DNA from: Candidatus Saccharimonadota bacterium
Lineage (GTDB): Bacteria > Patescibacteriota > Gracilibacteria > UBA4473
Assembly: GCA_965228485.1 (NCBI GenBank)
Contig: OZ245819.1
Coordinates: forward strand, 930,001-962,000
Reading direction: 5' to 3'
DNA length: 32,000 nucleotides
The notes beneath the pieces are model-generated. The model saw only the letters and a program-made list of their open reading frames with translations. It was not told the DNA's origin and ran no database searches. The stretch's first letter is position 1. Each line of letters starts with the position of its first letter. The position numbers were made by a program, and so were the translations under genes. Shown one piece after another: positions 553 through 23,700 of the stretch.

Positions 553-627
553 TCCCGGGTAGCTCAGTGGTAGAGCAGTTGGCTGTTAACCAATTGGTCG
601 TCGGTTCGAATCCGACCCCGGGAGCCA
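553..627 (+). tRNA. tRNA-Asn (anticodon GTT), CCA encoded
   Basis: Cloverleaf read by hand: acceptor TCCCGGG/CCCGGGA, D arm GCTC/GAGC, anticodon stem GTTGG/CCAAT with loop CTGTTAA (GTT), 5-nt variable loop, T arm GTCGG-TTCGAAT-CCGAC, discriminator G plus CCA. Confidence 0.95.
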
Positions 628-2339
628 GATTTAAGATTTATAGAAGAGGTGGCATTGTTGCCACTTTTTTTATTTTTAGCAATGTCTGATTTTATTATAC
701 TAGCAAAGGGTTCTCTCCATACTACCTCAACATGATCATCAAACATTTTCAGGTTCGAACAGAGGGATAAAAGCAGTGATTTTTTTGGTTCGAACTCAGT
801 TTCTTCATTTAAGATTTCTTTTGCATCTCCCAAAACCTGAAGTCTTTGCCAAGCAATCTCAAATTTAGAAGTATGTGATTCTCGTAAGAGTCGAACTTTT
901 TCCTGAGTTGATTCAAGCTCACTTTGACAACTTTCAATAGCAAACGAGATGTCTCTTGGTGATTCGTCACTACTGATCTTCTTTCGAGTAATCTTTCCAA
1001 GTTCTTCATCGAGCTTTGATTCTTTTTCTTTTAATTTTTGCAGTTCTTTTTTGAACTCTTTTTCTTCATCAAGCCAAAGCGTGTAAAGCTGACGAGTCAG
1101 AATTTGAAAAAGCTTTTCGGTTATATGCAATTTGGAAAGTTCGTTGTTAAGCCATGAGATAAAGTTTTCAAGCTTAACCGATTTTCGATTACTTCTGCTG
1201 TGATAAATCCGTTTTATCTCACTACATTTTGTATTTTGATTAACCGCGGTATTACATTTAGAACAAACAGTATTACCATCATAAAATCGATGTTTACACT
1301 TTGAACAAGTGAGTCTCTTTCGGTTATCATAAACAATCGGACTTGGTATTGTTTCACCATTCGCATTCGTAAAAGTATCTGTACCGCTCACAGTAATTCC
1401 TTTGATTAAACTTCCTAGGTCGTAAGATCTTTCTATTTTGGCGTGTACATACCCCATTCTTTGAAGTATTGCCTGCGCCTCCCAAAATTCCTCCTCAGTC
1501 ACCATTGCAGGGTGACTTCCTTCTGTCCAGATCTCCTTTCTTGCTTCGTCATAGCCATTTTTTATTTTTCCTGTGTAATACTGGCTGGAAAACATAGACC
1601 GAATAGTAGAGCTGGTGACATTTCGTACTTCTTTATTCCACAAATGTTTTAAGCCTTGATTGCGAGCATAAGAGTAAATTTGTTCGAGTTTGTATGTTTC
1701 AGAAAGAAGCATGTCCCAGAGTTCACGACATATTGAGTAATTTGGCTCATCTTTTTCAACCCATTTCTCTCCCTTATTTTCTCCTTCGTTTTTGTATCCG
1801 ATAGGGGCTTTCCCGCCAGTTCCTCCTTTTGATCTCTTATTTCTAAGTCCTGATTTTGTATTCTCTGATCTTTGGTCATTATCGAATTTAGCTACTGCTA
1901 AAAATAGGTTTAAAGTGAATTTATCGGCTGGTGTGTTTTTGAAAGACTTATCTAAAGTTCTTATCTCAGAGAGATGTGTGTTTCCATATTTGTCTATGGG
2001 ATCAAGCAGTTGGATAAGTCTTCCGTTGTCAGTTGCATTTCTTGAAAGCCGAGAAAGGTCTGTACAAAATAGAATATCAAATTTTCCTTTTTTTATTTCT
2101 TCGAGCATCATATTGAATTTCTCTCTGCCTGGCTTTTTAGCAGAAGCATCCTCATAAAACCAATCAACATCTTTTTCGCTTTTCCATTTTAATTTTTTCG
2201 TAGGATCTAGTTCTGCACGGTCATCTCTCGCAAAATATTCTTTTGTATCTCGCTCTTGCCTTTGAAGAGAATGTTTCTGATGCTTTTCATCAGAATCTTT
2301 TGAAGACTTTCTTCCGTAAACGACTACTCTAAATGACAT
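564..2339 (-). CDS. large serine recombinase (integrase)
   Basis: Track ORF 564..2363. The likely start is the ATG at 2339 (MSFRVVVYGRKSS..), giving the catalytic-Ser motif YGRKSS..Q. It has a resolvase-type N-terminal domain, a recombinase domain, a Cys4 zinc ribbon (CSKCKHRF..CSKCNT) and a long coiled coil (KEFKKELQKLKEKESKLDEEL). The 3' end is unusual: the frame stays open antisense through the tRNA-Asn terminator and gene. Confidence 0.9.
   Translation of the reverse strand: MSFRVVVYGRKSSKDSDEKHQKHSLQRQERDTKEYFARDDRAELDPTKKLKWKSEKDVDWFYEDASAKKPGREKFNMMLEEIKKGKFDILFCTDLSRLSRNATDNGRLIQLLDPIDKYGNTHLSEIRTLDKSFKNTPADKFTLNLFLAVAKFDNDQRSENTKSGLRNKRSKGGTGGKAPIGYKNEGENKGEKWVEKDEPNYSICRELWDMLLSETYKLEQIYSYARNQGLKHLWNKEVRNVTSSTIRSMFSSQYYTGKIKNGYDEARKEIWTEGSHPAMVTEEEFWEAQAILQRMGYVHAKIERSYDLGSLIKGITVSGTDTFTNANGETIPSPIVYDNRKRLTCSKCKHRFYDGNTVCSKCNTAVNQNTKCSEIKRIYHSRSNRKSVKLENFISWLNNELSKLHITEKLFQILTRQLYTLWLDEEKEFKKELQKLKEKESKLDEELGKITRKKISSDESPRDISFAIESCQSELESTQEKVRLLRESHTSKFEIAWQRLQVLGDAKEILNEETEFEPKKSLLLSLCSNLKMFDDHVEVVWREPFASIIKSDIAKNKKSGNNATSSINLKSGSRGRIRTDDQLVNSQLLYH
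649..671 (+). terminator. intrinsic terminator of the tRNA-Asn transcript
   Basis: Stem GTGGCA (649-654), loop TTGT, stem TGCCAC (659-664), followed by T7 (665-671). Confidence 0.7.
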
Positions 2340-2346
2340 TATTTTT

Positions 2347-2538
2347 CTATAAGCATCCAACAAGGAAGGTGTTTAAATTTCTAGAGCTTTCTTTGAGCTT
2401 TTCATTTGTCAGAGTTATTTCATATTCCTCTCTCAAAACTGCTTCTAAATCATTCAAGAATTCTTCTTCATTTTTGTATGCAGTGATCCCTGAAAGTTTC
2501 TCAGAAAAGTTTGGAGCAGGGGCATGTTTGAATGACAT
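2347..2538 (-). CDS. small acidic hypothetical protein immediately upstream of the recombinase (possible regulator or directionality factor; speculative)
   Basis: Track ORF 2347..2559. The internal ATG at 2538 gives a 63-aa product, MSFKHAPAPNFSEKLSGITAYKNEEEFLNDLEAVLREEYEITLTNEKLKESS... The stop lies 7 nt before the recombinase ATG on the same strand. There is no recognisable domain. Confidence 0.3.
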   Translation of the reverse strand: MSFKHAPAPNFSEKLSGITAYKNEEEFLNDLEAVLREEYEITLTNEKLKESSRNLNTFLVGCL

Positions 2539-2547
2539 CAAACATGC
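2522..2547. repeat. perfect 10-bp inverted repeat spanning the small-ORF start codon
   Basis: GCATGTTTGA (2522-2531), loop ATGACA, TCAAACATGC (2538-2547). The loop and right arm contain the ATG at 2538 (minus strand). Confidence 0.5.
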
Positions 2548-2864
2548 TTTTATACACACAAAGTTCCTATTTATGAAACCGTTTCTTGTTCCTTTTGAAG
2601 TTCCTCAAATTTTATTTGATAAGGGATAAAACAATATTTTATAGATTTAAAATCTTTGGAAAACTTGTTTGTTTCTACGAAAAGGAAAAGTACCTCTTAA
2701 TGTATAAAGAAAATAAAAAACGCCGTTTCTCAATAGAAAAACTTCTATCTTATTTTTTCTTCCATCGGTTATAAAGGTAAATCACTACGATGATCACTAT
2801 TCCATAAAAGATATAGGGATCATTTGCCATTTGTTCTTCGAGTCCTTCCATGTTTTTGGGGTTA

Positions 2865-2943
2865 TAAAATAAAAAAGGGGCGACTTTCGTTGCACCTTAC
2901 TCGACAATCCCTGAGGACAACCGTTAAGACGAGAAATCGCCCC
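2865..2943 (-). terminator. terminator-like structured element downstream of the HTH gene
   Basis: On the minus strand: GGGGCGA (2943-2937), a 53-nt interior, TCGCCCC (2883-2877), then TTTTTTATTTTA. The GC-rich 7-bp closing stem stands out in AT-rich DNA. The large interior makes it atypical for a simple intrinsic terminator. Confidence 0.4.
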
Positions 2944-3043
2944 ATCTTTATGGTTGTCTTAAATCAAACGCAAAAAATACGCTCAAGGGAAAATCGAAAT
3001 CGAGTAAAGTGCCTCTAAACTCTAAGATTTTTATCTCTTAAAA

Positions 3044-3484
3044 TCAAATAGAAATGAGATCAGATTCTATTTTATCGAGCCTTGTGTCGTGAATTCCTAA
3101 ATCCTTAAACGCCTGTATGTCTTCAAGGGTTAAAGTTGTTTCAGTCGTTGCTGGTGGCTTTATCTCTTGTCTCTTTATTGAATATGTTTGCGGTTGTTTT
3201 CTTTCTAAAAATTTTAGAGCAACCTCAAAGCTGTCACTTTTTAGCAAAGCCTTTTTAAGCTTCTTTTTGGCTTCGAATATCAAGAACATTTGAGATTGGT
3301 CTATTTCGTTCGAAAACTCTGTATTTTTAGCCTTCCAGTCGTAAAAGGTAGATTTAGATATTCCTGCATACAAACAAGCTTCCTCGACCGTGAAATCGTC
3401 TTTAAATGCCTCGATAAGTTTTCGGACAAGTTTGTCATCTAGTCCTTTGTATTTTGAAGGTCTGCCTCCTTTGTTTTTTATCAT
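3044..3484 (-). CDS. small HTH DNA-binding protein, resembling phage small-terminase or transposase N-terminal HTH
   Basis: N-terminus MIKNKGGRPSKYKGLDDKLVRKLIEAF..TVEEACLYAGISKSTFYDWKAKNTEF follows the GGRPxKY...HTH...W pattern seen in phage TerS-like and HTH proteins. Its ATG (3484) directly abuts the stop codon (3485-3487) of the upstream GHKL gene. Confidence 0.75.
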   Translation of the reverse strand: MIKNKGGRPSKYKGLDDKLVRKLIEAFKDDFTVEEACLYAGISKSTFYDWKAKNTEFSNEIDQSQMFLIFEAKKKLKKALLKSDSFEVALKFLERKQPQTYSIKRQEIKPPATTETTLTLEDIQAFKDLGIHDTRLDKIESDLISI

Positions 3485-5458
3485 CTAAATTTCACCATTA
3501 AATAAATGTCCATATTTTGACTTAATGAACTCAAGTTTTTCTGGTGATTGATTGAAATTATCTAGGTCTTTTTTCATGAAAGCATGTTTCCATTTCAATC
3601 CTCTAAAAATTGTTTCCCAACTTTTTACTATAACTCGAACATTTCCATCATCAGATTCCCAGAGAAGACCAGGTTCTTTGTTTTTTTGGTTAGCTTTCTT
3701 TTTCACGGTAGCGTCTAATACATCCCCAATTAAAAGAAACTCCCATGTTGTAGTAGATTTATCAAATCGATCATCTTCACTAACTTTCACTGCATAGTTT
3801 TCAATTTGTCCAACTTCTTTATTTGTAATTGTAACAGAAGGTCTTTTTAGTTCTACTACAAGGTGATGGAATGAATCTTGTCTTGTTTGAGGAAATTGTT
3901 TTCCGATACATATATCTGGGCGTTGTTTAGAATTTTCTTCTTCATCAACTACATGAAGATCATCTCTTCCCAGTTCCTTGATGTGTGATTTTAAAACATC
4001 TTTAAATATTTGGTCACTTGTCATAAGACCATTTTCATATTGATCTCCGAAAATCCATAGCTCGTTTTCAATAATTGGGTGTAAGTGCTTTCTTTCTAAT
4101 ACTTTCTTTTTTGTATCATTTGATGAAATCAATGAGTGAATTTCTTCAGCCATTTTGATTCTTTCGGTGATTTTTTTTGATAGCTTTATGATATTTGAAA
4201 GAGAATTTCTTTTTAGTAGTTCAGAAAAGTCATCAATTTCACTTTTTTCGAGAGTAACGACTCCTTCTAATATGTGTATTAATTGATCAGAGCCATTTTC
4301 AACAGCATTTTTTATAAGGTTTAACACCATTGTTTTCGTTTTTCCTTGACCAAATATTTCGGGAGACTTTTCAAGAGTTTTTGCTGCAACTATGTCGAAT
4401 ATTTGCCTCTCCGCCACTTCAAGCTTTGATTCAGGCGGATTTTGATAAGGATAGTCTTCACTCTTTTTGATTTCATCAATTTTTGATTTTGCTTTTTCTT
4501 GTTTCACAGTAAGTATGAAATCACTCATTTTCAGATCTATTGCAGATTCTATTTTTGAAAAAACTGGATTAGTTTTAAAAAGCAAAAAAGCATTGTCTTC
4601 TGAAAATTTATCAAAATAAACTGATTTTATTACGATAGAGTGACCAAAATCTTTAAGGTTTGTTCCCGTGACTCCATCGTCATATAAAGGCATTCCTTTT
4701 GAATTTGCAAATATCCGTTTTTTGATTCCCTTACTCTCCCAGTGATAAAAAATTACCTCAAGTGTTAAATCAATATTAAGGTCTTCATCAATAACAGGAA
4801 TCGATTGTTTTTGCTTTTTAATAATGGCTTTTTTTATATCGATTTCATCTCCATTTAGACTTATTTTTATATTCTCTGAGTTGTAGGTTTCTAGATATAA
4901 TCCTAAGTTGGAAATTAAATCATTTCTCAGTTCTTCGATTGAAAATTTTTTATCAAACCTTTCTTTAAAAAGATTTTCAATTTTTACTACTACCCCAGTG
5001 TGTTCAGTAGAATCAACAGGCTTATCTGAAAGTTTGAACTTTTGTAAAGACCCATTTGAGCTTCCTTGGATTTTGAATACCTTTTTTTTGTTGTCTTTTT
5101 CTTTATAAATACTTCCCCAAGAAACCTCTGTTCCCAAAGAAAAACTAAAGTAACGACCCTGTCCATTTTTCCCATGATAAAACCTGCCGTTCGGTGTTTT
5201 ATCGATAGAGGCTTTTGCCGAAGATCCTAAGAACCCAAAACTATCATTTATTTTATTGTAATCTATTCCATGTCCGTTGTCTGAAACTGTTATTAAAGAA
5301 AGTCCGTCTAGCGAGTTGTTCTCAAATACGATATCAACATTTGTTGCATCTGCATCAAGAGCGTTCCATACTAATTCTAAAATTGCTCTAGATACTGTTT
5401 GGCTAGCAAAATTATTCTCAAGATAATTATTTGCGACTTTTACTTCTAATTCCTTCAT
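3485..5458 (-). CDS. GHKL-superfamily (Bergerat-fold, MORC/HATPase_c_3-like) ATPase fused to a C-terminal PD-(D/E)xK nuclease-like domain (Shedu/DUF4263-like)
   Basis: N box ELVWNALDADATNV, G1 box VSDNGHGI, G2 box GKNGQGRYFSFSLG. The C-terminal region has ENELWIFGDQYE .. RPDICIG .. HHLVVELKRPS .. QIENYA, which fits a D...E-x-K restriction-endonuclease-fold signature. Confidence 0.8.
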   Translation of the reverse strand: MKELEVKVANNYLENNFASQTVSRAILELVWNALDADATNVDIVFENNSLDGLSLITVSDNGHGIDYNKINDSFGFLGSSAKASIDKTPNGRFYHGKNGQGRYFSFSLGTEVSWGSIYKEKDNKKKVFKIQGSSNGSLQKFKLSDKPVDSTEHTGVVVKIENLFKERFDKKFSIEELRNDLISNLGLYLETYNSENIKISLNGDEIDIKKAIIKKQKQSIPVIDEDLNIDLTLEVIFYHWESKGIKKRIFANSKGMPLYDDGVTGTNLKDFGHSIVIKSVYFDKFSEDNAFLLFKTNPVFSKIESAIDLKMSDFILTVKQEKAKSKIDEIKKSEDYPYQNPPESKLEVAERQIFDIVAAKTLEKSPEIFGQGKTKTMVLNLIKNAVENGSDQLIHILEGVVTLEKSEIDDFSELLKRNSLSNIIKLSKKITERIKMAEEIHSLISSNDTKKKVLERKHLHPIIENELWIFGDQYENGLMTSDQIFKDVLKSHIKELGRDDLHVVDEEENSKQRPDICIGKQFPQTRQDSFHHLVVELKRPSVTITNKEVGQIENYAVKVSEDDRFDKSTTTWEFLLIGDVLDATVKKKANQKNKEPGLLWESDDGNVRVIVKSWETIFRGLKWKHAFMKKDLDNFNQSPEKLEFIKSKYGHLFNGEI

Positions 5459-5551
5459 TGATTTTAAAATAATTTATTATTGATGTTTATCTTAATTGTA
5501 CATTTTTCACTTATTCCCTAAAGCGTTCTTCGTTTTTCGCTAGCCTTTCCC

Positions 5552-7555
5552 CTAGAAGTCTAAAAAATCTTTTGTCTCCGTTTTTGCTTGTTTTGGAATT
5601 ACTTCTTCTGCATCTGCTTTTTTTAATTGAGGATCTTCTGGTTCTTCATATCCCATTTCTTCTACAAAAAAATCAAAGAACTTTTCAAATTCATCAATAT
5701 TTAAAAAATCTGAAATTTGTCCTCCCTCTTCAATCATTTTTGAAATCGTTTCCAAAACCCCTTGCTCTTTATCGAAACGAGGTTTCTTCCCTGAGAGATA
5801 AAAATCTTCTAATTCTCCTGTAAGCGTAAAAATATTTTCTCCTTGAAGATCTTCCATATATTTCTCTGCTCGTTTCTTGTCTGCTCCTTCACTAATTTCT
5901 TCGATGTTTTTCCCAAAAGTGATTTGTGATTTAAGAGTGTTAAGAGCATCTATTTTCCCTTGAGATTCCCTCAGTTCGGTAAAGTATGAATTCAGTCCTT
6001 CTTTTATAAAATCGAAGTCAGGCAACACGAAATAAGGAATTTCAAGTTCTCTTAGAACTTCAACATATTTCCAAAAATCAGTTTTTCCACCAATATTCAA
6101 AACCGAAACATTGTTTTCATTCAACCAATTTTCTCCAAGCCTTTTTTGTTCTCCATATCCCTTTGCTACTTCCTCTAGTACATACTTTAAATCTTCGGTC
6201 AGAATTACTGCATCAGCAAAGAATATTTCAGCATTTTCTCTTCGAATTAAAATTTGCTTCCTTTTTGGCGGATCAAAGCTAATATTTTTTGCCTTCGTTC
6301 CTCCTTCATCAATCTTTTGTATTGCAATAACATTGAGTTTTTCTCCAACTGGAACAATAAACTCAGAAGAATGCGTAGTTGCTATTACCTGATTTTTTCC
6401 CCCATCTAAAAAGTGATTTAAACGATCCGAAATAACCCTTCTTCCATGTGGATGAAGGTAAAGTTCAGGTTCTTCAATGGCAAGCAAAGAACCGCTTGTA
6501 TGAGCAACCTCACGAATATAAAAATCAAACAAGCCGATTGTAACTGCACTTTGAATCCCTGCTCCCTTGTCTTTCAATTCACTATTAAATCCATCATCAA
6601 CATAAATTAAGGCATTTTTATAAACATCTTGTTTGGTATCAGGGTTGAACTGAAATGAAATTTTTGTATTTGGAAAAGCGATATTTATTTTCCCATCACA
6701 AACGCTTTCTTGAAGTTCTCCAAAAACACCTTCTGATGCTTTTTTAACTTCTCCAAAAGCTTTTTTTAATTCTGCATTCTCACTATCGATATAGTTTTTT
6801 AAAAGTTTTCCATACCAAGACCAACTACTTATTCTAAGCTGATCTTTGGTATCACGAAAAGCAGGAATGATAGCACTTTGCAGAAAACAGTGTCTTAAAT
6901 TTCCAACATTCAATCCCATCTCCCATTTTTCGCCATCATTTGAGTAAAAAAAGCCTAGTTTCTTCTTAAATTCTTGTCCTTCTTTTTTTACAAAAAAACA
7001 AAAGGCTACTCTTTGAATACTTGCAAATTCTTTATCAAAGGTTTGTCCCTTACAATATCCCTTTTCTCCAATCCATTTTGTACTGAAATTATCTACATTT
7101 TCCTCTAAAACCTGTTCTCCCTTTTCTGTAAAAAACGGATAAATACTACTCAAGTTTTTTTCTAAATCATCAAAATTTATATAATAGTTTGTCTGAACTC
7201 TTGAATGATAAGGAATGTCTTTGTCCTCTTTGACGATCTTTTTGAATGCTTGTTGAGGGGCATCTGCAAAATCTAGTGTTTCTATCTCTCCTGTTTTAAG
7301 GTCGATGCCTCTTTTTAATTCGCACCAAATAAAAAGCTCTTCATCCGTATTTCCATTATAAAAATCATTTTCAGTAATATTTTCTGATTTATTCCAAGTG
7401 GGAGAGGTTTCCCCCAGCACGAGATCTATAGCTTTTACAATATTGCTTTTACCTGAGTTATTTCTCCCAACAATAACATTTTTTCCTTCTTCAAAAGATA
7501 CATCTAGTTTTTTTATTGAACGATAATTTTTTATAAAAACTCGGGAAAGGTGCAT
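5552..7555 (-). CDS. OLD-family nuclease: N-terminal ABC/AAA_15-type ATPase plus C-terminal Toprim domain
   Basis: N-terminus MHLSRVFIKNYRSIKKLDVSF..VIVGRNNSGKSNIVKAI (Walker A). LLAIEEPELYLHPH is Walker B followed by the LHP motif typical of OLD/GajA-like ATPases. ATTHSSEF is also present. Toprim glutamate segment: AVILTEDLKYVLEE. Acidic DxD-like segment: YFVLPDFDF. Confidence 0.85.
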   Translation of the reverse strand: MHLSRVFIKNYRSIKKLDVSFEEGKNVIVGRNNSGKSNIVKAIDLVLGETSPTWNKSENITENDFYNGNTDEELFIWCELKRGIDLKTGEIETLDFADAPQQAFKKIVKEDKDIPYHSRVQTNYYINFDDLEKNLSSIYPFFTEKGEQVLEENVDNFSTKWIGEKGYCKGQTFDKEFASIQRVAFCFFVKKEGQEFKKKLGFFYSNDGEKWEMGLNVGNLRHCFLQSAIIPAFRDTKDQLRISSWSWYGKLLKNYIDSENAELKKAFGEVKKASEGVFGELQESVCDGKINIAFPNTKISFQFNPDTKQDVYKNALIYVDDGFNSELKDKGAGIQSAVTIGLFDFYIREVAHTSGSLLAIEEPELYLHPHGRRVISDRLNHFLDGGKNQVIATTHSSEFIVPVGEKLNVIAIQKIDEGGTKAKNISFDPPKRKQILIRRENAEIFFADAVILTEDLKYVLEEVAKGYGEQKRLGENWLNENNVSVLNIGGKTDFWKYVEVLRELEIPYFVLPDFDFIKEGLNSYFTELRESQGKIDALNTLKSQITFGKNIEEISEGADKKRAEKYMEDLQGENIFTLTGELEDFYLSGKKPRFDKEQGVLETISKMIEEGGQISDFLNIDEFEKFFDFFVEEMGYEEPEDPQLKKADAEEVIPKQAKTETKDFLDF

Positions 7556-7796
7556 TTGGAAGGTTAAAAGTCAATATCATACTATTTTTATTAAAGACAA
7601 TGTCTACCAACCTTCTTCATTTTGATTTATTGGTTATTTCTCAATCAGGTTTCCTTAACAGAAGTCTTTTCATTCTCTTTAATAAGCCTCAGCTCTTCTT
7701 TCCAACTCGTATGATGAGGAAGCTTTAAGAAATGGTGATACCGTTTATAGTCGAAGTTTAGTAGGGTTCGCAGAACCTGAATTTCGTGGGAGCCAT

Positions 7797-7835
7797 AAAA
7801 AGACGGATAGACATTTTGTGTTTAGCCGTCTTTTT
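7797..7835 (-). terminator. terminator hairpin downstream of the methyltransferase gene
   Basis: AAAAAGACGG (7797-7806) pairs with CCGTCTTTTT (7826-7835) around a 19-nt loop. On the minus strand it starts 8 nt after the stop at 7843 and is followed by a T run. Confidence 0.5.
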
Positions 7836-7842
7836 AATTTTC

Positions 7843-9003
7843 TTATCGTTTCACCAAACAAACTTCTCGAGCGACAAAGGTGTCTTCTCGTTCGTAGAAG
7901 AAGGTTGTTTCATCGTTGAATATTTTTTCAGGTTTGAAGCCGTATGATTTGATAGTATCAAAAAGATCTTGGCTAATGGATGTTTTTTGCCCGCGGTGAT
8001 TCCAGGCAGGGAGGCAAAAAGAGCAAGTTTGGATATTTGTGTTATCGATGTTTTTGAAAAACTTTTTCCAGAGGGCTAAAACCTCTCGAGCATTCTTTTG
8101 AATATCGGCTTTTTCTGGTTGGCGTTCAAAGTTTTTTCCTAGGTAGCCTTCCGTAACAATTACGGGATCAGTTTTTAGCATTTCTGGATGATCAAATTGA
8201 GTGGCGTCTTTTGGGAAAAATTCACCGTTTTTTTCTTCGTATCGGAACTTTTCGGCCATTTGAGAAAAGTTTTTTTGAGAACTTTTTACAAACATTTCAT
8301 TCCAGTCAGAACCAATGGTTTTGTGTCCGAGAATAGCGGCCTCAATATTAATCGTTCCACTTCCGCAAAAGGGATCAATAATCGTTTGATCGATATTAGG
8401 GTTGGCGAGATTGATAAGGATTTGAGCCAGTTTTGGAGGCAGCATTCCCATTTTTGGGTCTCGAAAGACTTTGTTTCGATCTCGAAGCGTATAGTTTCTG
8501 AGATTTTGGTTGGCTATAGTTTCAGCAAGGAGAAAAGAGTTTTCATTTTTCCATATGAGAAATTCATGACCTTTTTGAAGTATTCGTCGGTCAAAAATTT
8601 GTCCTGAATTTAGGTTTTTTCCCTGATAGTTTTCGATTCTTATTTTTTCAAAATGGTCTTTAGTTTTTCCGATAAGTTCTGATTGAAAATCTTTTCCTGC
8701 GCCGAAACTTGAAAACCCAACTTTGAATTTTTGTTCTTCTTCAATTCGATCCCAAACCATATTCATGAGCTGAGATTTTGAGGCAAATTCGCCTAGTATT
8801 TTCCCAAACCGGATTGTCCCCCCAAGTCGATCAAGGAATAATTGGTGTTCCTCTCTTGGTATATTTCGGGGATTTTCAAAACGAAGATTTTCACCAATAA
8901 AGAGTGATTTTCTGGGGTCAACAAACACTTCTTCACAAAAATTACGTAGCTCTGCTCGAGAGAGTTCAAAATTACGACCGAGGACGAATAGATATTGGTT
9001 CAC
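7843..9003 (-). CDS. Trm11/UPF0020-like SAM-dependent RNA (probably tRNA guanine-N2) methyltransferase
   Basis: MLPPKLAQILINLA..IIDPFCGSGTINIEAAILG..DAT..VIVTEGYLG parallels the Trm11/RlmL-type layout (substrate loop, motif I DPFCGSGT). The expected (D/N)PPY motif IV is replaced by TEGY. Confidence 0.75.
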   Translation of the reverse strand: MNQYLFVLGRNFELSRAELRNFCEEVFVDPRKSLFIGENLRFENPRNIPREEHQLFLDRLGGTIRFGKILGEFASKSQLMNMVWDRIEEEQKFKVGFSSFGAGKDFQSELIGKTKDHFEKIRIENYQGKNLNSGQIFDRRILQKGHEFLIWKNENSFLLAETIANQNLRNYTLRDRNKVFRDPKMGMLPPKLAQILINLANPNIDQTIIDPFCGSGTINIEAAILGHKTIGSDWNEMFVKSSQKNFSQMAEKFRYEEKNGEFFPKDATQFDHPEMLKTDPVIVTEGYLGKNFERQPEKADIQKNAREVLALWKKFFKNIDNTNIQTCSFCLPAWNHRGQKTSISQDLFDTIKSYGFKPEKIFNDETTFFYEREDTFVAREVCLVKR

Positions 9004-17653: not shown

Positions 17654-20239
17654 ATGAGAGAGATAGATGATAAACTTTCATATGTGCTTTTGGAGGCGAA
17701 TGAGTTGTATCCTTCTGAAGAGTTACAAAGGTGTCGAGAAATTCTTGGTATTGAGGATTTTCCGGAAGCCTTAAAAGAGGCTAAAAGACTGATAGAAGAT
17801 ATAGCTGCTGAGCCTTATCATTTAGGGATTGCTCCTGATGTTTATAGGGAAAAAATTGTTGGTATTGTGAAACAATATGCTCCGAGAGCGATTGGCTTTG
17901 CTTTGGCGGGGATGCCAACTCCCGAGCTTCGGGAAGGAGTAAAAAGAGAGAGTATTGTTTTAGAGACTCTTATCGCTTTTTCTCGTCAGTATTTTAAGGT
18001 TAATGAGAATCGTCTCATTCAAGAGGTGGCTCATCAAGGGGGCATCTCTTTAAGAAAGCTTTCGCAGGATACCGAGTTTATTTCAAATATGGTTAGAGAA
18101 GTGGTTGATAATCCTATTGGGGCTCATATAGACAAAGCTCATACAAATGCCGTTTTGGGAGATTATCCTGAACAACCACAAGAGGTAGACTTAACCGCTG
18201 GACAGGCTTCTGTAGATCCTCTGCATGAAGATGCTCATTTGGTTGATAGGGCTATGTATCATGGAATGGTAAATGTTTTGAATGAGATGAGTGAAGAAGA
18301 ATTATTAAGCCGTCCAGAGCTTATGAGCGCTTTTAGCGGCGCAGACATTGATCCAAAAGATTTTAAACGTTGGATTCGGACAAGGCCAAAAATTCGAAAT
18401 TTTTGGATTAACGCTCTTAATACTTTTATCTTTTTTCATCAGTTTTCTTGGTTCAAATTCAATCTCTCTTTTACGGGTAGTCCAGTATTAAAACCTGTAT
18501 GGATAGCCTTTTTAAAACATCATTATGAGCGATTATCAGGGAATGAGGAAAGCACAAAAACTTTTGGGGAGCTTTTAGCCAGCTTTTGGGAAGCTTGTCC
18601 GCAGGAGTTGAGTAGCCTGATTGATGAAGCTTTTCGAAATGAGAAAGCTAAAAAAGGGCCTTCCGATAGATCGCCTAAACCAGTGAAAAAAGTTGAAAAA
18701 GCTGACAAACCTAAGAAAAAAAGAAAACCTCGTCGTAATACTAGGATCACTCCAGTAGAGCAAGAAGCTGGCATTGTTGATAAAGTAGAAGACGTTGTAG
18801 CGCTTCCAAAACCAGAGGTTGTTGGAGGCGAAGAATCATTATCAAAACGTTTTGCCCTTGGACAATACGGAGTAGAACTTACTAATGTGCCGGAAGAGGC
18901 GGCTTTTCTTTTGATCAATTCTGGAAGAGGGGCTAATTATCAAAGAATACCTTTAGTTAAAGGACAGTCGGTTTATCGCTTTAGGAGTCCAAAGTATAAA
19001 TCAGGGAAATTTTATGAGGTAAAAATTGGATATGCTCGGGCAGATGAAAAACTCGTTCCAGAAAACAGTTTAGTTGTAAAATTTCAGCATCCTGTATCAG
19101 AAGTAGTTCCTCCTGCGACTGAAAAGGATTTAGAAACTTTTGAAGTTCCAGCGGAGTTTGAACCTGGAGTACTGTCTGGTAATTCAGAGACAGAGAGCAG
19201 TCACGAAGAGGGGGGTGTAGTTCAGCCAGCAGAAGAATTGGTTCCAGAGAATACAGAGCCAATAGCTTATTTGAACAATCTAAAATTGCTTTCTCGACGT
19301 TATAATCTTGATGATTTTCAACTTTCTAATAATCGAGGTTTTGTTTGGGATCAATGTATTGGGAGGCCAAGTATGAGTTTATCTGGTGAAAATGAAGGGG
19401 TAAGTTTTGAAATTTCAAAAGTTCCTATGATTGGGATGGTTGGGGTAACTTTGGAATGCGAACATTTCTCTGTAGATGTTATATTTTCAAAAACTAAAGC
19501 TTCGGTGGTATCTCCTAAAATTATGGTGAGACATACAGATAAGAACTTTACAGATAAAAACATTGAAGACTTTGCCCATGGTTGGCTCTATGATTTTTCT
19601 TTTCAATATTCAGATGGATTAAGAGAAACATTAGATCAAAAAGTTGAGGAAGATAAAAAACGAGAAGAGGAAGTCTTTGTACGACAGAAAGCGAAGTATT
19701 TGAATTCAGAAAAAGGGAAAGATGTTCTTCGTAAAAAACAGGAGGTTTTGCGTTCTGGGGGAATTTTAAGGGTGCTAAGAACCGATGATTCCGGCGGGTA
19801 TGTTAAAGAACTTTTACCTTCGTCAGAAATTCATCCGGAGGATGAAATAATTCTTATGGGAGCAACATTATCAGTGGGAAGAGAAAATTTCCCAAGTTTG
19901 TATGAAGCTTTAGAAAGTCCTTATTTTTGTCACTGTATTTACCAACGAATTCGTGCCACAGTTAAACAGGCTCATGGTCTCAATGGCGAAGCCAGAACTC
20001 CATTTGAAGATAAGTACAAGGACGCCGTTTTTTCTATACTCTCTGCTTTTGAGATCGATGAAGAAGATATAGCTTTGGATGAGAGTGATTTTTGGTTTCA
20101 AGTGGAAGATTTACTTACCAAAGGGAATACTCATATAATTGAGAGTTTTATTGATTTACTAAAAGACCAGGGACTACCCGCTGGATTTCAGCATCCTTTT
20201 ACTTTGGATCGGGAAACAATCGAAAAGTTTAAAAGTTAA
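17654..20239 (+). CDS. large hypothetical protein (861 aa), no recognisable domain
   Basis: Long uninterrupted ORF with non-repetitive, protein-like composition. It contains a strongly basic linker (KAKKGPSDRSPKPVKKVEKADKPKKKRKPRRNTR). I could find no catalytic motif. Confidence 0.8.
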   Translation: MREIDDKLSYVLLEANELYPSEELQRCREILGIEDFPEALKEAKRLIEDIAAEPYHLGIAPDVYREKIVGIVKQYAPRAIGFALAGMPTPELREGVKRESIVLETLIAFSRQYFKVNENRLIQEVAHQGGISLRKLSQDTEFISNMVREVVDNPIGAHIDKAHTNAVLGDYPEQPQEVDLTAGQASVDPLHEDAHLVDRAMYHGMVNVLNEMSEEELLSRPELMSAFSGADIDPKDFKRWIRTRPKIRNFWINALNTFIFFHQFSWFKFNLSFTGSPVLKPVWIAFLKHHYERLSGNEESTKTFGELLASFWEACPQELSSLIDEAFRNEKAKKGPSDRSPKPVKKVEKADKPKKKRKPRRNTRITPVEQEAGIVDKVEDVVALPKPEVVGGEESLSKRFALGQYGVELTNVPEEAAFLLINSGRGANYQRIPLVKGQSVYRFRSPKYKSGKFYEVKIGYARADEKLVPENSLVVKFQHPVSEVVPPATEKDLETFEVPAEFEPGVLSGNSETESSHEEGGVVQPAEELVPENTEPIAYLNNLKLLSRRYNLDDFQLSNNRGFVWDQCIGRPSMSLSGENEGVSFEISKVPMIGMVGVTLECEHFSVDVIFSKTKASVVSPKIMVRHTDKNFTDKNIEDFAHGWLYDFSFQYSDGLRETLDQKVEEDKKREEEVFVRQKAKYLNSEKGKDVLRKKQEVLRSGGILRVLRTDDSGGYVKELLPSSEIHPEDEIILMGATLSVGRENFPSLYEALESPYFCHCIYQRIRATVKQAHGLNGEARTPFEDKYKDAVFSILSAFEIDEEDIALDESDFWFQVEDLLTKGNTHIIESFIDLLKDQGLPAGFQHPFTLDRETIEKFKS

Positions 20240-20711
20240 TATAATCTCCAATTTTTCCTGTAAAAGTTCCTGCATTTAACTCTACAACGTAGAGTGCTTG
20301 AGCTCCATCCCCTGGACGAAAAACAGTGCAATGTTCTGTAGTACAGGGCTGAGCTTGTATGTAGTGCATTACTTGTTGGTTTTTAGAAAGCCAGATTATA
20401 TCTAGCGGGATGAGGGTGTTTTTCATCCAGAATCCATAATTTCCTGGTTGGTCAAAGATGAATAGCATTCCTTCGTCTGTTTTGAGTGAAGATTGATTCA
20501 TTAATCCAGTCTCTCTTTCCTGGGGAGAATCGGCAACAGTAAGATTAAAGGTTTGGTTCTGAAAATGAGCTTCAATAACGTCTGGGGTAGAAGTTTTAGA
20601 TTCGGTTTGCGTTTGTACTTCAGTTGGCGTAGATTCAGTAGTGTTTTGACTTTCAGGAAACTCACAAGCAGAAAGCAAAAATACGGTAAGGATAAAGGTC
20701 AGTTTTTTCAT
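20229..20711 (-). CDS. DUF192-family lipoprotein
   Basis: Signal peptide with lipobox (FLLSAC), a T/E/Q-rich linker, then MLFIFDQPGNYGFWMKNTLIPLDIIWL, which matches the DUF192 core pattern. Confidence 0.75.
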   Translation of the reverse strand: MKKLTFILTVFLLSACEFPESQNTTESTPTEVQTQTESKTSTPDVIEAHFQNQTFNLTVADSPQERETGLMNQSSLKTDEGMLFIFDQPGNYGFWMKNTLIPLDIIWLSKNQQVMHYIQAQPCTTEHCTVFRPGDGAQALYVVELNAGTFTGKIGDYINF

Positions 20712-23700
20712 GTCTCAGAACTTAAAACAAATTATTGATAACTTAAATAAATCTCAGCGTCAAGCTGTAGAAGCAGTTTATGGTCCAGTCCTTGTTTTGG
20801 CAGGTCCTGGGACAGGAAAAACTCATATGCTTACAACTCGTATTGCTCATATTTTACAGTCTGGAATTGGAGCAGAAGCTCATAATATTCTCTGTCTGAC
20901 ATTTACCGAAAATGCGGCTGTAGAGATGAGAACGAGGTTGCAAAAGTGGATTGGTCCTCTAGCCTACCAGGTGAAAATATTGACCTTCCATGGTTTTTGT
21001 CAGTGGGTAATTGATGACAATAGTCAGCTCTTTTATGAGCAGATAGGACATCGAGAAATTGCTGATGATCTTCAAAAAGCTTTGATTTATCGTGAAGCGA
21101 TTAAGTCTCGAAAGTGGAAATATTTTTCTAGCATTTGGGACGATTTTGTTCATCAGTATGATTTTTTAAAAGCGGTTAGTGATCTAAAACGTGAAAATAT
21201 TAATCCTGAAAAATTAAGAGAATTAATTCCAGAAGAGAAAAAAAGATTGGAGGCTCATCCTGATAATTTTTATAAAAGAAAATTTAAGAACTTTAACCCA
21301 GGAGATTGGAAGCCTCAAGCTCGGGTAAAAATTGATGATAAGCTTGCTCGAATGTACGAGTTAGCTGATCTCTGGGAGGTTTATGAAGGCTTGATGCAGC
21401 GACGAGGATTTTATGATTTTGATGATTTGATTGCCTGGGTGGTTGAAGCCTTATCTACCAATGAGAGTCTGCGCTTAGATTTGCAAGAGAGATTTCAGTG
21501 GATCATGGTTGATGAATATCAAGATACAAATGATTCACAAAATGCAATACTCTGGGAGTTGGTTGAAGGTGTAGATTTGCCTAATATTTTTGCCGTTGGA
21601 GATGCAGATCAGTCAATTTATCGTTTTCAGGGAGCGAGTGTGGCGAATGTTCAAGACTTCCGTCAGAAATTTGGAGAGAGAAAGGAAATCACGCTTACAG
21701 AGAATTATCGTTCTCACCAGAATATTTTAGATGCCGCTTATCATTCGATAGATCACAATCTAGAAAGGGCCAACAAAGAAATGCGGCTTTCAGCCCAAAA
21801 AAAAGATTTTGCCACGAGTGATCCAGGCACAATCTCTCAGGCAGAACTTGCGAGTCGAGCTTCTGAGATTTCATTTTTGGCTGAAACCATAAAATCTCAC
21901 TTGGCGGCTGGTGTTTTGCCAAAGGAAATTGCTATTCTTGTTCGAAAGAATCGAGAAATAGAAGAGCTGGCTGAAGAATTGCCAAAATTTGGAGTACCGG
22001 TTAGTGCTCAGGTGTCTCAAAATATTTTTGAAAATGAATATGTGAGATATTTGATTTTAATGCTCATGTGTTTTGTAGACGCTGAGGATAGTGAGAGGCT
22101 ATTTGATTTGTTGCACGCTAAGTTTTTGGATATTGATCCTGAGGTTTTGCTTTTGGTTTCTCTTTCAAGAGAAAGGGAAAGATCAATTATTGAAACATTG
22201 TTGCAGAGAGACTTTACAGATAAAAAACTCCAGAATTTTTTAAACTTTTTTATTCAAGCACGTCGTGATTTTCATCATTCTAGAGCGGCTATTATCGCTG
22301 AGAAGTTGTTATATGAATCTGGCTTAGCCAAATTTTTAACTGATAAAAATAAGTTAGATGACTGGCAGTCTGTTAAAAAATTTATTGCTTGGATTCGTGA
22401 ACAGGCTCAGTCAGAGAAATTTCAACAGTCATTTCGTTTTGAGAAAGAGCTTCCAGAAATTCTTAATAGAATCCAACTTCATCAAAATTTAGGTATTAAA
22501 ATTTTTCCCGATCCTTTACCTCAAGATACTCATTCTATCCGAATAATGACGGCCCATAAATCGAAAGGACTTGAGTTTGAAGTGGTTCTGATTCCAGGGT
22601 TGGAAGATAAAAAATGGGGAAATCCTCGAGGAAAAGTAGGTATAGCCTTGCCTCAACTGTCCTCTGAAGAATATGATGAAAATGAAGAAGAAAGACGTCT
22701 GTTTTTTGTAGCTTTAACTCGAGCCAAATCACAACTCTATCTTTCTTACAGTGTTACAGATTTTTCTGGTCGAGATAAGACGCCTTCAATGTTTTGGCAT
22801 GAAATTCCAGAAGAAATTTCCACAAAAACTGAGGCAGAAGAGCTTGAAATTAAGTTGCAGCATTTATTACCGGTTTTCTTTGAGCAGGCAGAAAAGACGC
22901 TTACAAATGGAGAAAAAGCAATTTTACAAGAGCGAGTTAAAAATTTTCGTTGGTCGGTCTCAAGCCTACAATCTTATTTGGATTGTCCACGAAAATTTCT
23001 TTATCAGAACCTTTATAAATTTCCGAGGCGACCAATGCCACAAGCTGCTCTTGGAACGGCATTACATCAAGCTTTAGAAAAAAGTTTTTTACAAATTCAG
23101 AATAAAAAAAGAGTTTTATTGGAATCAGTATTGGAAAATTTCGACTATGCTTTAAGAGGACAAAATATACCACAAGAGGATTTTGAGAATTTCCTAAGTC
23201 ATGGACAAGAGATTTTACAAATTTATTACGAACAAGAGCTAACTAATTTTGAAACGACTCATCCTTTTGGTTACGAGCTCGAATATGACTTTAGTCGCTT
23301 TAATCCGATGATTGATAATATACGAATCACGGGAAAGATGGATAAAATAGTTTTTTTAGATGAAAAGAGATCACGTGTAAAAATTGTAGATTATAAGTCC
23401 GGAAGACCTCGTTCTATAGTTTCTGGAGAGTCTTACTGGAGGCAGTTGGTTTTTTATGATTTACTAACGGGATCCAGTCGTGGTAATGATTGGATTGTTG
23501 AGAGTTGTGAAATTGAATTCTTGACTCCTGATAGTAATGGTAAGCTTGGGAAGAGGTCTTGGGAAGTGTCCCAAGAAGATCGGGAAAAGGTAATTTCAGA
23601 ATTAAAGTGGGTGCATGAAAAAGTGATGAATTTAGAATTTCCTCTAAAAAATCGTGCTGATAGTGATGAGCGTTTATGGGAGGAGATTCAGTACTGGCAA

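What the first reader, a model, noticed from the sequence alone, without database searches (positions are those of the whole stretch)
3044..7555. Candidate undescribed defence operon: OLD-family ATPase/Toprim nuclease + GHKL-ATPase/PD-(D/E)xK nuclease + HTH protein
Seen in sequence: three co-oriented minus-strand genes with a 93-nt gap and then a 0-nt gap. Gene 1 (5552-7555) has the OLD-family signature: Walker A GRNNSGKSN, LLAIEEPELYLHPH, ATTHS, Toprim VILTEDLKYVLEE, and acidic VLPDFDF. Gene 2 (3485-5458) has a complete Bergerat ATP-binding fold (ELVWNALDADA, DNGHGI, GKNGQGRYFSF) plus a C-terminal D...ExK nuclease signature (RPDICIG, VVELKRP). Gene 3 is a small HTH protein. Established knowledge: OLD-family nucleases act in phage defence either alone (P2 Old) or paired with a UvrD-like helicase (Gabija GajA/GajB). 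They also occur with retron reverse transcriptases and in the split ATPase/Toprim form (PARIS AriA/AriB). Prokaryotic MORC-like GHKL ATPases have been linked by genome context to restriction-type conflict systems. Inference: an OLD nuclease partnered with a GHKL-nuclease fusion is not a pairing I know from any named system. The cassette sits on a recombinase-bearing island next to a tRNA, which is the classic location of defence cargo. Two ATP-driven nuclease modules suggest a sensor/effector or mutually licensing arrangement.
Basis: partly seen in the sequence, partly recalled or inferred. Interest (0 to 1): 0.8.

Follow-up and report, generated by a model that had tools for sequence, protein, structure and literature searches.

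The report
Two known defence genes, merely adjacent
A small mobile island next to a tRNA gene carries two separate, already-described single-gene anti-phage nucleases side by side (a Class 1 OLD nuclease and a GHKL-ATPase/restriction-fold nuclease of the paraMORC3 / GHKL-Shedu type); the pairing is not conserved elsewhere, so this is an ordinary defence island and not a new two-protein system.

Summary
The three minus-strand ORFs, the 93-nt and 0-nt gaps and every quoted motif are present.

The interpretation as an undescribed OLD + GHKL-nuclease operon does not hold.
- **Gene 2** has the paraMORC3 architecture of Iyer et al. 2008: GHKL, S5-type transducer and an E-D-ExK restriction-fold nuclease. 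That paper noted it occurs standalone. The same architecture was later classed as type I-D Shedu, and VcSduA was shown experimentally to defend as a single gene.
- **Gene 1** is a fused ATPase-Toprim OLD with no helicase or RT partner. By context that makes it Class 1, and its closest solved relative is TsOLD.
- **Synteny fails both ways.** Only 6 of 83 GHKL-anchored loci have any OLD-like neighbour, and the five characterised are complete Gabija or other ATPase systems. Of 26 informative OLD-subfamily loci, 1 has a GHKL-nuclease neighbour (a barely alignable one), 6 have type I RM genes and none has GajB. None of the nearest OLD or GHKL relatives repeats the pair.
- **Gene 3** is a terminase-small-subunit-like HTH. 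No homologue of it was found in the 80 GHKL loci from genomes, so it probably belongs to the serine-recombinase element.

Verdict: two independent known defence genes stacked on an integrative island. Interest is low.

The parts
5552..7555 (-). Class 1-type OLD family nuclease (667 aa): N-terminal ABC ATPase (about residues 1-400, nt 6356-7555) fused to a C-terminal Toprim nuclease (about residues 445-583, nt 5807-6223)
   Evidence: Pfam AAA_15 1.5e-43 and OLD-like_TOPRIM 4.9e-10. PADLOC Old 1e-46. Best solved relative is 6P74, TsOLD Class 1, at 1.3e-16. Walker A, Walker B, H-loop, E454, D513/D515 and E583 are conserved in 42 homologues. No GajB, RT or split AriB partner.
3485..5458 (-). GHKL-ATPase + S5-type transducer + C-terminal PD-(D/E)xK nuclease (657 aa), with the paraMORC3 / GHKL-type (type I-D) Shedu-like architecture. 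GHKL about nt 5054-5395; nuclease core about nt 3599-4096
   Evidence: HATPase_c_3 1.6e-17. Invariant N32, D60xGxG64, G96/99/101 and E455-D515-E536xK538. The full-length model (pLDDT 80) matches MutL LN40, MORC2 and Hsp90 over 320-460 columns. For the C-terminal model the top PDB hit is the B. cereus Shedu nuclease 8TI9 (prob 0.92), followed by FokI, MspJI, EndoMS and McrC. Full-length match to phage family phrog_6203, 1.5e-62.
3044..3484 (-). Terminase-small-subunit-like / excisionase-like HTH protein (146 aa). It abuts the GHKL stop codon and probably belongs to the mobile element, not to a defence system
   Evidence: phrog_4102 terminase small subunit 2.1e-18, with further TerS PHROGs. Weak HTH_Tnp_1_2, HTH_17 and 'excise' hits. 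No homologue in any of 80 GHKL-anchored loci.
5459..5551 (-). 93-nt OLD-GHKL intergenic spacer
   Evidence: No terminator-like site and no significant RNA structure, z = +0.43. A weak -35/-10-like match lies at 5489-5461. Unrelated in sequence to the similarly sized gap in L092.
564..2363 (-). Large serine recombinase (599 aa), the presumed integrase of the island. Its 3' end overlaps tRNA-Asn
   Evidence: Resolvase 1e-20 and Recombinase 1e-9. phrog_95 integrase 1e-42.
553..627 (+). tRNA-Asn(GTT), at the left edge of the island
   Evidence: ARAGORN. Rfam tRNA 74.5 bits.
7796..7836 (-). Intrinsic-terminator-like hairpin plus U-run after the upstream RNA-methyltransferase-like gene (7843-9003). 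It insulates that gene from the OLD gene and places the island's right edge between about 7556 and 7795
   Evidence: RNA fold -14.6 kcal/mol, z = -3.6, followed by UUUUUA. The methyltransferase is closest to tRNA/rRNA guanine-N2 methyltransferases.

Best explanation
A roughly 7-kb low-G+C integrative element sits at tRNA-Asn. It carries a large serine recombinase and a TerS-like HTH gene, and its cargo is two independent single-gene anti-phage systems that happen to be stacked head-to-tail.

**(1) Class 1-type OLD nuclease.** By analogy with characterised Class 1 OLDs, an ABC-ATPase dimer senses an infection cue and controls a two-metal Toprim nuclease. That nuclease nicks or degrades DNA, or cleaves tRNA.

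**(2) GHKL-ATPase/PD-(D/E)xK nuclease of the paraMORC3 / GHKL-type Shedu architecture.** By analogy with VcSduA and other GHKL enzymes, an ATP-driven GHKL + transducer dimer clamp gates the C-terminal restriction-fold nuclease, which cuts invading DNA.

The two genes may be co-transcribed, but neither needs the other. The HTH gene serves the mobile element, for packaging or excision, and not defence.

**Shown here:** domain architectures, catalytic-residue conservation, lack of conserved synteny, and the island context.
**Inferred:** the biochemical activities, the triggers, and functional independence in this host.
For: **Architecture and catalytic motifs:**

[quoted passage not shown] Gu et al. 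list GHKL N-terminal domains among type 1D Shedu. VcSduA alone protects E. coli and V. cholerae, and its E27A and K557A mutants are dead.

**Single-gene Class 1 OLD defence** is reported for P2, V. cholerae and E. coli YbjD (abstracts).

**Synteny from the GHKL side.**
- The genome scan found 531 relatives (an upper-limited count) across many phyla.
- An OLD-HMM hit lies within 10 kb in only 6 of 83 loci. Of the five characterised: Gabija GajA+GajB in L046 and L081, AAA_15+HNH in L026, OLD+HNH in L071, an AAA_21 ATPase in L032. The sixth, L036, is about 6 kb away on the opposite strand and was not characterised.
- Type I RM is the commonest neighbour, in 8 loci.
- The closest relatives P0002-P0006 sit beside Gabija, SLFN_AlbA_2, type I RM or nothing recognisable.

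**Synteny from the OLD side.**
- Of 26 informative subfamily loci, type I RM genes flank 6, DUF2130 flanks 2, a GHKL-nuclease flanks 1 and GajB flanks 0.
- The nearest homologues (57-63% identity) have DUF2130, HsdS/HsdR, a helicase or a GmrSD-type neighbour.
- In the one analogous pair (L092) the OLDs are 43% identical, the GHKL-nucleases are barely alignable and the spacers are unrelated.

**HTH gene:** TerS-like, with no homologue in the 80 GHKL loci from genomes.
Against: - The genes are co-oriented with only 93 nt and no terminator between them, so co-expression, and hence cooperation, is possible.
- OLD-family or related ABC-ATPase systems lie directly beside GHKL-nucleases in several unrelated loci (window, L092, L046, L081, L026). 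I could not test rigorously whether this exceeds the defence-island background.
- Pfam DUF4263, the signature of Shedu, does not hit this family even at E<=10. The VcSduA sequence could not be obtained for direct comparison. The link to the experimentally tested protein therefore rests on shared architecture and motifs, a weak fold match and weak SduA HMM hits in 6 of 42 members.
- PADLOC scores Old and GajA models almost equally for gene 1.
Confidence: 0.82

Rival explanations
1. One reading: OLD and the GHKL-nuclease form one obligate two-component system, in a sensor/effector or mutually licensing arrangement, possibly with the HTH protein as regulator.
For: Co-orientation, a 93-nt gap and no terminator. 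A second OLD-then-GHKL-nuclease pair with the same order and a similar gap occurs in L092. Gabija sits immediately beside GHKL-nucleases in L046 (22-nt gap) and L081.
Against: The pair is absent from all nearest relatives of either gene. It occurs in 1 of 26 OLD-subfamily loci. The OLD-like neighbours of other GHKL genes are complete, different systems. Divergence of the two components between the window and L092 is discordant. Both architectures are experimentally sufficient on their own in other organisms. No homologue of the HTH was found in the 80 GHKL loci from genomes.
Confidence: 0.07
2. The GHKL-nuclease is the restriction component of an RM-like module (HgiDII/BbrUII-type GHKL restriction enzyme), with its cognate methyltransferase being the co-oriented gene at 7843-9003.
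For: The N-terminal 190 residues match NCBIfam BbrUII/HgiDII restriction enzyme (5.6e-17) and PADLOC REase_II models. A methyltransferase-fold gene lies upstream on the same strand.
Against: The match is 61.5 bits against a 550-bit cut-off and covers the GHKL part only. The methyltransferase is closest to tRNA/rRNA guanine-N2 methyltransferases (TIGR01177, Trm14, Trm-G10). It has host-like G+C and is followed by a strong terminator hairpin. The family is mostly standalone, with no conserved methylase.
Confidence: 0.04
3. The cassette is cargo of a phage satellite or prophage remnant, and the TerS-like protein together with the nucleases serves inter-element competition (packaging hijack plus helper interference) more than host defence as such.
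For: A TerS-like gene (phrog_4102, 2e-18) abuts the GHKL gene. The recombinase matches phage integrases (phrog_95, 1e-42). Both nucleases match full-length PHROG families, phrog_6203 at 1.5e-62 and phrog_4747 at 5.6e-48. P2 Old is itself prophage-borne.
Against: The window holds no capsid, replication, TerL or other satellite hallmark gene. This reading changes who benefits, not what the two nucleases are, so it overlaps the best explanation.
Confidence: 0.07

Closest known systems
paraMORC3 family (Iyer, Abhiman & Aravind 2008, PMC2292703)
   Same: N-terminal GHKL ATPase with intact motifs, an S5-type transducer, and a C-terminal restriction-endonuclease-fold domain with E-D-ExK. Sporadic distribution rich in Bacteroidota and Proteobacteria. 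Standalone, with no conserved neighbours.
   Different: None found at the level of architecture. Membership is judged by architecture and motifs only, because no paraMORC3 reference sequence was available for direct comparison.
VcSduA / type I-D (GHKL N-terminal domain) Shedu (PMC12137116; bioRxiv 10.1101/2023.08.10.552793)
   Same: The same GHKL + middle domain + C-terminal PD-(D/E)xK layout and a similar length. The catalytic Glu of GHKL motif I (E28 here, E27 in VcSduA) and the ExK lysine (K538 here, K557 in VcSduA) are both present. The top fold match of the C-terminal domain is the B. cereus Shedu nuclease 8TI9.
   Different: Pfam DUF4263 is not detected in this family. SduA HMMs hit only 6 of 42 members, at about 1e-3. 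VcSduA itself was not among the 1,272 relatives of a Vibrio member of this family, so it is probably a different clade. No experiment exists for this clade.
Class 1 OLD nucleases (P2 Old, Thermus scotoductus OLD 6P74, V. cholerae OLD, E. coli YbjD)
   Same: A fused ABC ATPase + Toprim protein. No obligate partner gene. The best solved match is TsOLD. Catalytic residues are intact.
   Different: About 140 residues longer than TsOLD. This subfamily is habitually embedded among other defence genes, including inside type I RM operons. The 2023 review describes Class 1 as not proximal to defence genes. The nearest clade has Glu-Asp in place of the Glu-Gly of the other aligned members, with a one-residue deletion.
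Gabija (Class 2 OLD GajA + UvrD-like GajB)
   Same: The OLD-family ATPase-Toprim architecture. PADLOC GajA models score almost as well as Old.
   Different: No adjacent UvrD-like helicase in the window or in any of the 26 informative subfamily loci. The only UvrD-type gene in the window is AddA-like and 13 kb away. No GajA chain among PDB sequence hits.
HgiDII/BbrUII-type GHKL restriction enzymes
   Same: The GHKL N-terminal region is detectably similar.
   Different: Only the N-terminus matches, far below the family cut-off. There is no cognate DNA methyltransferase.

Membership tests
OLD family nucleases | N-terminal ABC-type ATPase with Walker A, Walker B/D-loop and H-loop | tested here: met
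   AAA_15 1.5e-43, residues 1-400. GRNNSGKS, LLAIEEPELYLHPH and TTHS are conserved in 42 homologues.
OLD family nucleases | C-terminal Toprim domain with conserved acidic metal ligands | tested here: met
   OLD-like_TOPRIM 4.9e-10. E454, D513, D515 and E583 are invariant.
Class 1 OLD | Single gene with no obligate conserved partner (a contextual definition) | tested here: met
   Neighbours of 26 informative subfamily loci vary. Class definition from PMC10568477.
Class 1 OLD | Sequence affinity to a characterised Class 1 protein rather than to Class 2 | tested here: inconclusive
   The best PDB hit is TsOLD 6P74 at 1.3e-16, with no GajA or BpOLD hit. However, PADLOC Old (157.8 bits) and GajA (148.1 bits) score nearly equally.
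Class 2 OLD / Gabija | [quoted passage not shown] | tested here: not met
   None adjacent. 0 of 26 subfamily loci have one. The AddA-like helicase at 20710-23715 is unrelated in context.
Class 3 OLD / retron | Adjacent reverse transcriptase and retron ncRNA | tested here: not met
   No RT domain in neighbouring ORFs. Rfam finds only two tRNAs in the window. The retron Eco8 effector model scores 54 bits against a 250-bit cut-off.
Class 4 OLD / PARIS | ATPase (AriA) and Toprim (AriB) on separate polypeptides | tested here: not met
   Both domains lie in one 667-aa ORF.
paraMORC3 | GHKL ATPase with intact ATP-binding motifs | tested here: met
   HATPase_c_3 in 42 of 42 members. Invariant N32, D60, G64, G96, G99 and G101.
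paraMORC3 | S5-fold transducer domain after the GHKL domain | tested here: met
   The model aligns to MutL LN40 (GHKL + transducer) over 314-334 columns at TMt about 0.5, and to MORC2-4. No Pfam S5 hit for the window protein itself.
paraMORC3 | C-terminal restriction-endonuclease-fold domain with E-D-ExK | tested here: met
   Invariant E455, D515, E536 and K538. Fold hits to the Shedu nuclease, FokI, MspJI, EndoMS and McrC. HSDR_N_2 sub-threshold in 14 of 17 members.
paraMORC3 | Standalone, without conserved gene neighbours | tested here: met
   No neighbour family occurs in more than 8 of 80 loci. Matches the statement in PMC2292703.
Shedu (SduA) | DUF4263 (PF14082) nuclease domain | tested here: inconclusive
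   The Pfam model does not hit at E<=10. PADLOC SduA models hit 6 of 42 members at about 1e-3. The top Foldseek PDB hit is 8TI9, the Shedu nuclease, at E 9.6e-3, prob 0.92, TM 0.39/0.45.
VcSduA-type (type I-D) Shedu | Detectable sequence homology to VcSduA (A1552VC_00276) | not testable with these tools
   The sequence table is truncated in the held supplement. No V. cholerae member, and none with the E27/K557 numbering, among the retrieved proteins.
VcSduA-type (type I-D) Shedu | Single gene sufficient for phage defence, dependent on both the GHKL Glu and the ExK Lys | not testable with these tools
   This needs an experiment. The equivalent residues E28 and K538 are present and conserved.
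HgiDII/BbrUII type II restriction enzymes | Full-length match above the NCBIfam cut-off, plus a cognate DNA methyltransferase | tested here: not met
   61.5 bits against a 550-bit cut-off, residues 26-215 only. The neighbouring methyltransferase is of RNA-MTase type and is terminator-insulated.
Phage terminase small subunit (gene 3) | TerS profile match and an adjacent terminase large subunit | tested here: inconclusive
   phrog_4102 2.1e-18 over residues 2-103. No TerL or other packaging gene in the window.
Large serine recombinase | Resolvase catalytic domain plus Recombinase domain | tested here: met
   PF00239 1e-20 and PF07508 1e-9.

The most novel reading that the evidence does not exclude
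The repeated immediate juxtaposition of OLD-family or related ABC-ATPase systems with GHKL/PD-(D/E)xK nucleases may reflect real functional synergy and not mere island packing. The instances are Class 1-type OLD in this window and in L092, Gabija in L046 and L081, and a Septu-like pair in L026. For example, nicks or ends made by the Toprim nuclease could provide the DNA substrate or trigger for the GHKL-gated nuclease. That would make this a facultative two-layer module not yet described.
Probability: 0.07. Interest if true: 0.55.

Novelty: new member of a known kind. Interest (0 to 1): 0.15.

Why it matters
Little would change. The locus adds a divergent member to each of two known single-gene defence families and gives another example of defence genes riding on a small serine-recombinase island at a tRNA.

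Two practical points follow.
- The 2023 PADLOC models and Pfam DUF4263 do not recognise this large GHKL-nuclease family: 531 or more species-level genomes and 1,272 relatives of one member. Automated defence annotation is therefore likely to miss it, which is why it looked undescribed.
- This OLD subfamily contradicts the textbook statement that Class 1 OLDs sit apart from other defence genes, since it is often nested inside type I RM operons.

Tried and rejected
1. **Conserved OLD-GHKL synteny.** Tested from both genes and rejected.
2. **Common descent of the window pair and the L092 pair.** Rejected: the OLDs are 43% identical, the GHKL proteins are barely alignable and the spacers are unrelated.
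3. **Direct comparison with VcSduA.** The sequence table is truncated in the held supplement. The last homology search, seeded with a Vibrio family member, returned no V. cholerae protein, and no retrieved protein has the E27/K557 numbering.
4. **Sequence-profile link of the C-terminal domain to solved Shedu structures.** No PDB hit at E<=10, and Pfam DUF4263 is absent. Only the fold search gave a weak Shedu top hit.
6. **att direct repeats or a displaced tRNA-Asn fragment at the island's right end.** None found, so the right boundary is only bracketed at about 7556-7795.
7. **RM hypothesis with the upstream methyltransferase.** Rejected.
8. **Promoter and terminator scans.** Uninformative on operon status: promoter-like matches are fewer than in shuffles, and no terminator lies in the gap.
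9. **Organism identity.** Not obtained. The exact proteins occur on a single unnamed 1.295-Mb NCBI/ENA contig.
Full report
**1. Observation**

The three co-oriented minus-strand ORFs exist exactly as reported: 5552-7555 (667 aa), 3485-5458 (657 aa) and 3044-3484 (146 aa). They are separated by 93 nt and 0 nt, and every quoted motif is present in the translations.

Gene 1 matches AAA_15 (1.5e-43) and OLD-like_TOPRIM (4.9e-10) in Pfam. In PADLOC it matches Old (1e-46), GajA (9e-44) and AriA (3e-42). Gene 2 matches HATPase_c_3 (1.6e-17, residues 22-135) and scores sub-threshold against the PD-(D/E)xK model HSDR_N_2. Gene 3 has weak HTH hits in Pfam and NCBIfam.

A large serine recombinase (564-2363) and tRNA-Asn (553-627) flank the cassette. 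G+C drops to 0.30-0.34 across 2-8 kb, against 0.37-0.39 outside.

**2. What gene 2 is**

A database search returned about 57 full-length homologues at 25-41% identity. In an alignment of 42 of them, two sets of residues are invariant: the GHKL motifs (N32, D60xGxG64, G96/G99/G101) and an E455...D515...E536-x-K538 nuclease signature.

An AlphaFold model (pLDDT 80) aligns over 320-460 columns with MutL LN40, MORC2-4 and Hsp90/TRAP1. That covers GHKL plus an S5-type transducer. The C-terminal domain modelled alone (pLDDT 75.5) has as its top PDB match the Bacillus cereus Shedu nuclease domain, 8TI9 (E 9.6e-3, prob 0.92). FokI, MspJI, EndoMS and McrC follow.

At the sequence level the Shedu link is weak:
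- Pfam DUF4263 never hits, even at E<=10 on isolated C-terminal domains.
- PADLOC SduA models hit 6 of 42 members at about 1e-3.
- A C-terminal profile finds no PDB chain.

This architecture is not new. Iyer, Abhiman and Aravind (2008) defined paraMORC3 as GHKL + S5 + a C-terminal RE-fold domain with E-D-ExK. [quoted passage not shown] Gu et al. listed GHKL (HATPase_c_3) N-terminal domains among type 1D Shedu proteins. Adams et al. (Nat Microbiol 2025) showed that VcSduA, a GHKL + PD-(D/E)xK protein they equate with paraMORC3 and type I-D Shedu, protects E. coli and V. cholerae on its own. They also showed that it requires both the GHKL glutamate and the ExK lysine, and that it occurs in about 1.2% of genomes.

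I could not obtain the VcSduA sequence. Membership in the VcSduA clade therefore rests on architecture and motifs, not on a direct alignment. It is probably a sister clade.

**3. What gene 1 is**

The OLD protein belongs to a well-conserved subfamily at 45-63% identity, spanning bacteria and archaea. All ATPase and Toprim catalytic residues are conserved. Its best solved relative is the Class 1 Thermus scotoductus OLD, 6P74 (1.3e-16), and no Class 2 chain passes threshold.

OLD classes are defined by context (PMC10568477):
- There is no adjacent UvrD-like helicase. The only UvrD-type gene in the window is an AddA-like helicase-nuclease 13 kb away.
- There is no reverse transcriptase or retron RNA.
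- ATPase and Toprim are fused.

Gene 1 is therefore Class 1 by definition. Single-gene defence by Class 1 OLDs has been reported for P2, V. cholerae and E. coli YbjD (abstracts).

**4. The synteny test, which decides the interpretation**

Clustering the neighbours revealed no dominant partner. The commonest neighbour was type I RM HsdM, in 8 loci.

An HMM of the OLD subfamily hit a neighbour in only 6 of 83 GHKL-anchored loci. Of the five I characterised:
- L046 and L081 carry complete Gabija pairs (GajA + GajB).
- L026 carries an AAA_15 + HNH Septu-like pair.
- L071 carries OLD + HNH.
- L032 carries an AAA_21 ATPase.

The sixth, in L036, lies about 6 kb away on the opposite strand and was not characterised. 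The five closest relatives of the window protein sit next to Gabija, an unidentified fragment that is not OLD, an SLFN_AlbA_2 protein, a type I RM system, or nothing recognisable. The HTH protein has no homologue in any of the 80 loci.

*From the OLD side.* A metagenome scan gave 79 loci. Among the 26 informative subfamily loci:

| Flanking genes | Loci |
|---|---|
| Type I RM genes | 6 |
| DUF2130 | 2 |
| GHKL-nuclease | 1 |
| GajB | 0 |

Several of the type I RM cases have OLD inserted between hsdS and hsdR. The nearest homologues (57-63% identity) lie next to DUF2130/GmrSD, inside HsdM-HsdS-OLD-HsdR, next to an AAA_11/12 helicase, or after an AAA_15 + methylase + GmrSD_N-HNH trio.

The single analogous pair is L092, where an OLD is followed at 93 nt by a 661-aa GHKL + Morc6_S5 + D..ExK protein. 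Its OLD is 43% identical to the window's. Its GHKL-nuclease aligns only over short stretches (30% over 93 residues and 23% over 105), and its spacer is unrelated. That is the signature of independent juxtaposition, not of an inherited operon.

**5. Gene 3 and the island**

The 146-aa protein matches terminase-small-subunit families, the best being phrog_4102 at 2.1e-18. It also has weak excisionase and transposase-HTH similarity. Together with the phage-type serine integrase (phrog_95, 1e-42), this points to a small integrative element, either a satellite-like element or a prophage remnant, carrying defence cargo. No other phage genes are present.

No long att repeats or displaced tRNA fragment mark the right end, as expected for a serine integrase. 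The upstream methyltransferase-like gene (7843-9003) is closest to tRNA/rRNA guanine-N2 methyltransferases and is followed by a strong terminator hairpin (z = -3.6). It is therefore a host gene, not an RM partner, and the island's right edge lies between about 7556 and 7795.

There is no terminator in the OLD-GHKL spacer, and the promoter-like matches are no more frequent than in shuffled sequence. Co-transcription is possible but uninformative.

**6. Mechanism (committed view)**

Two independent single-gene systems. The OLD protein couples an ABC-ATPase sensor to a two-metal Toprim nuclease. This is inferred from the family: DNA nicking or exonuclease activity, or tRNA cleavage, in characterised Class 1 members. 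The GHKL-nuclease is an ATP-driven dimeric clamp of GHKL + transducer that gates a PD-(D/E)xK nuclease against invading DNA. This is inferred from VcSduA genetics and GHKL enzymology. Architecture, residue conservation and context are shown here. The activities, the triggers and functional independence in this host are inferred. Confidence is about 0.8.

**7. Novelty and score**

Both genes are divergent new members of known kinds, and the pairing is not a system. The residual novel reading is facultative synergy between OLD-type systems and GHKL-nucleases, which are found side by side in a handful of unrelated loci. It is not excluded but has low probability, about 0.07. Interest is 0.15.

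Noticed in passing
window 564-627: The serine recombinase ORF (minus strand) runs 64 nt into the tRNA-Asn gene on the opposite strand, so its last ~21 codons are antisense tRNA sequence. This suggests the att site lies inside the integrase 3' end and the tRNA.
   Followed up: partly
L096 4426-10833; L164 721-8632; L165 2127-10038; also L100, L101: Close homologues of the window's OLD are inserted between hsdS and hsdR of type I RM operons with 6-13 nt gaps. That is at odds with the review statement that Class 1 OLDs are not proximal to other defence genes. Type I RM genes flank 6 of the 26 informative loci.
   Followed up: partly
L084 9988-11256; L163 2095-3360; L170 8490-8554: A DUF2130 protein (~420 aa) directly follows two of the three closest OLD homologues (63% identity), and one also lies near a GHKL-nuclease locus. 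It may be a real partner, or co-travelling cargo, in that clade. It is absent from the window.
   Followed up: no
window ~6190-6200 (OLD residues 453-457): The window OLD and its eight closest aligned relatives have Thr/Val-Glu-Asp and a one-residue deletion after the Toprim catalytic Glu. The other 33 members have Glu-Gly. It is conserved within the clade, so it is not decay, and its functional meaning is unknown.
   Followed up: partly
L092 4429-8414: A second OLD-then-GHKL-nuclease pair with the same order and a similar gap (93 nt). Its GHKL protein (HATPase_c_3 + Morc6_S5 + D..EMK) belongs to a very distant clade.
   Followed up: yes
L046 9992-15125; L081 4073-9983: Complete Gabija pairs (GajA + GajB) sit immediately beside GHKL-nuclease genes, with a 22-nt gap in L046 and a 143-nt gap in L081, in both possible orders.
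   Followed up: partly
window 2364-3043: A 680-nt stretch between the recombinase and the TerS-like gene has no convincing ORF, only overlapping ORFs of at most 98 aa on both strands. It may be a regulatory or att region of the element.
   Followed up: no
window 17654-23715: An 861-aa protein with no Pfam hit is followed by a UvrD + PDDEXK_1 helicase-nuclease. This looks like an AddB/AddA-type pair with a highly divergent AddB.
   Followed up: no
window 3485-5458 and 5552-7555: Both nucleases match PHROG families of unknown function over their full length (phrog_6203 at 1.5e-62; phrog_4747 at 5.6e-48), so both families are also carried by phages or prophages.
   Followed up: no
window 7796-7836: A strong terminator-like hairpin (-14.6 kcal/mol, z = -3.6, U-run) follows the RNA-methyltransferase-like gene. 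The consensus terminator scan missed it because of internal mismatches.
   Followed up: yes
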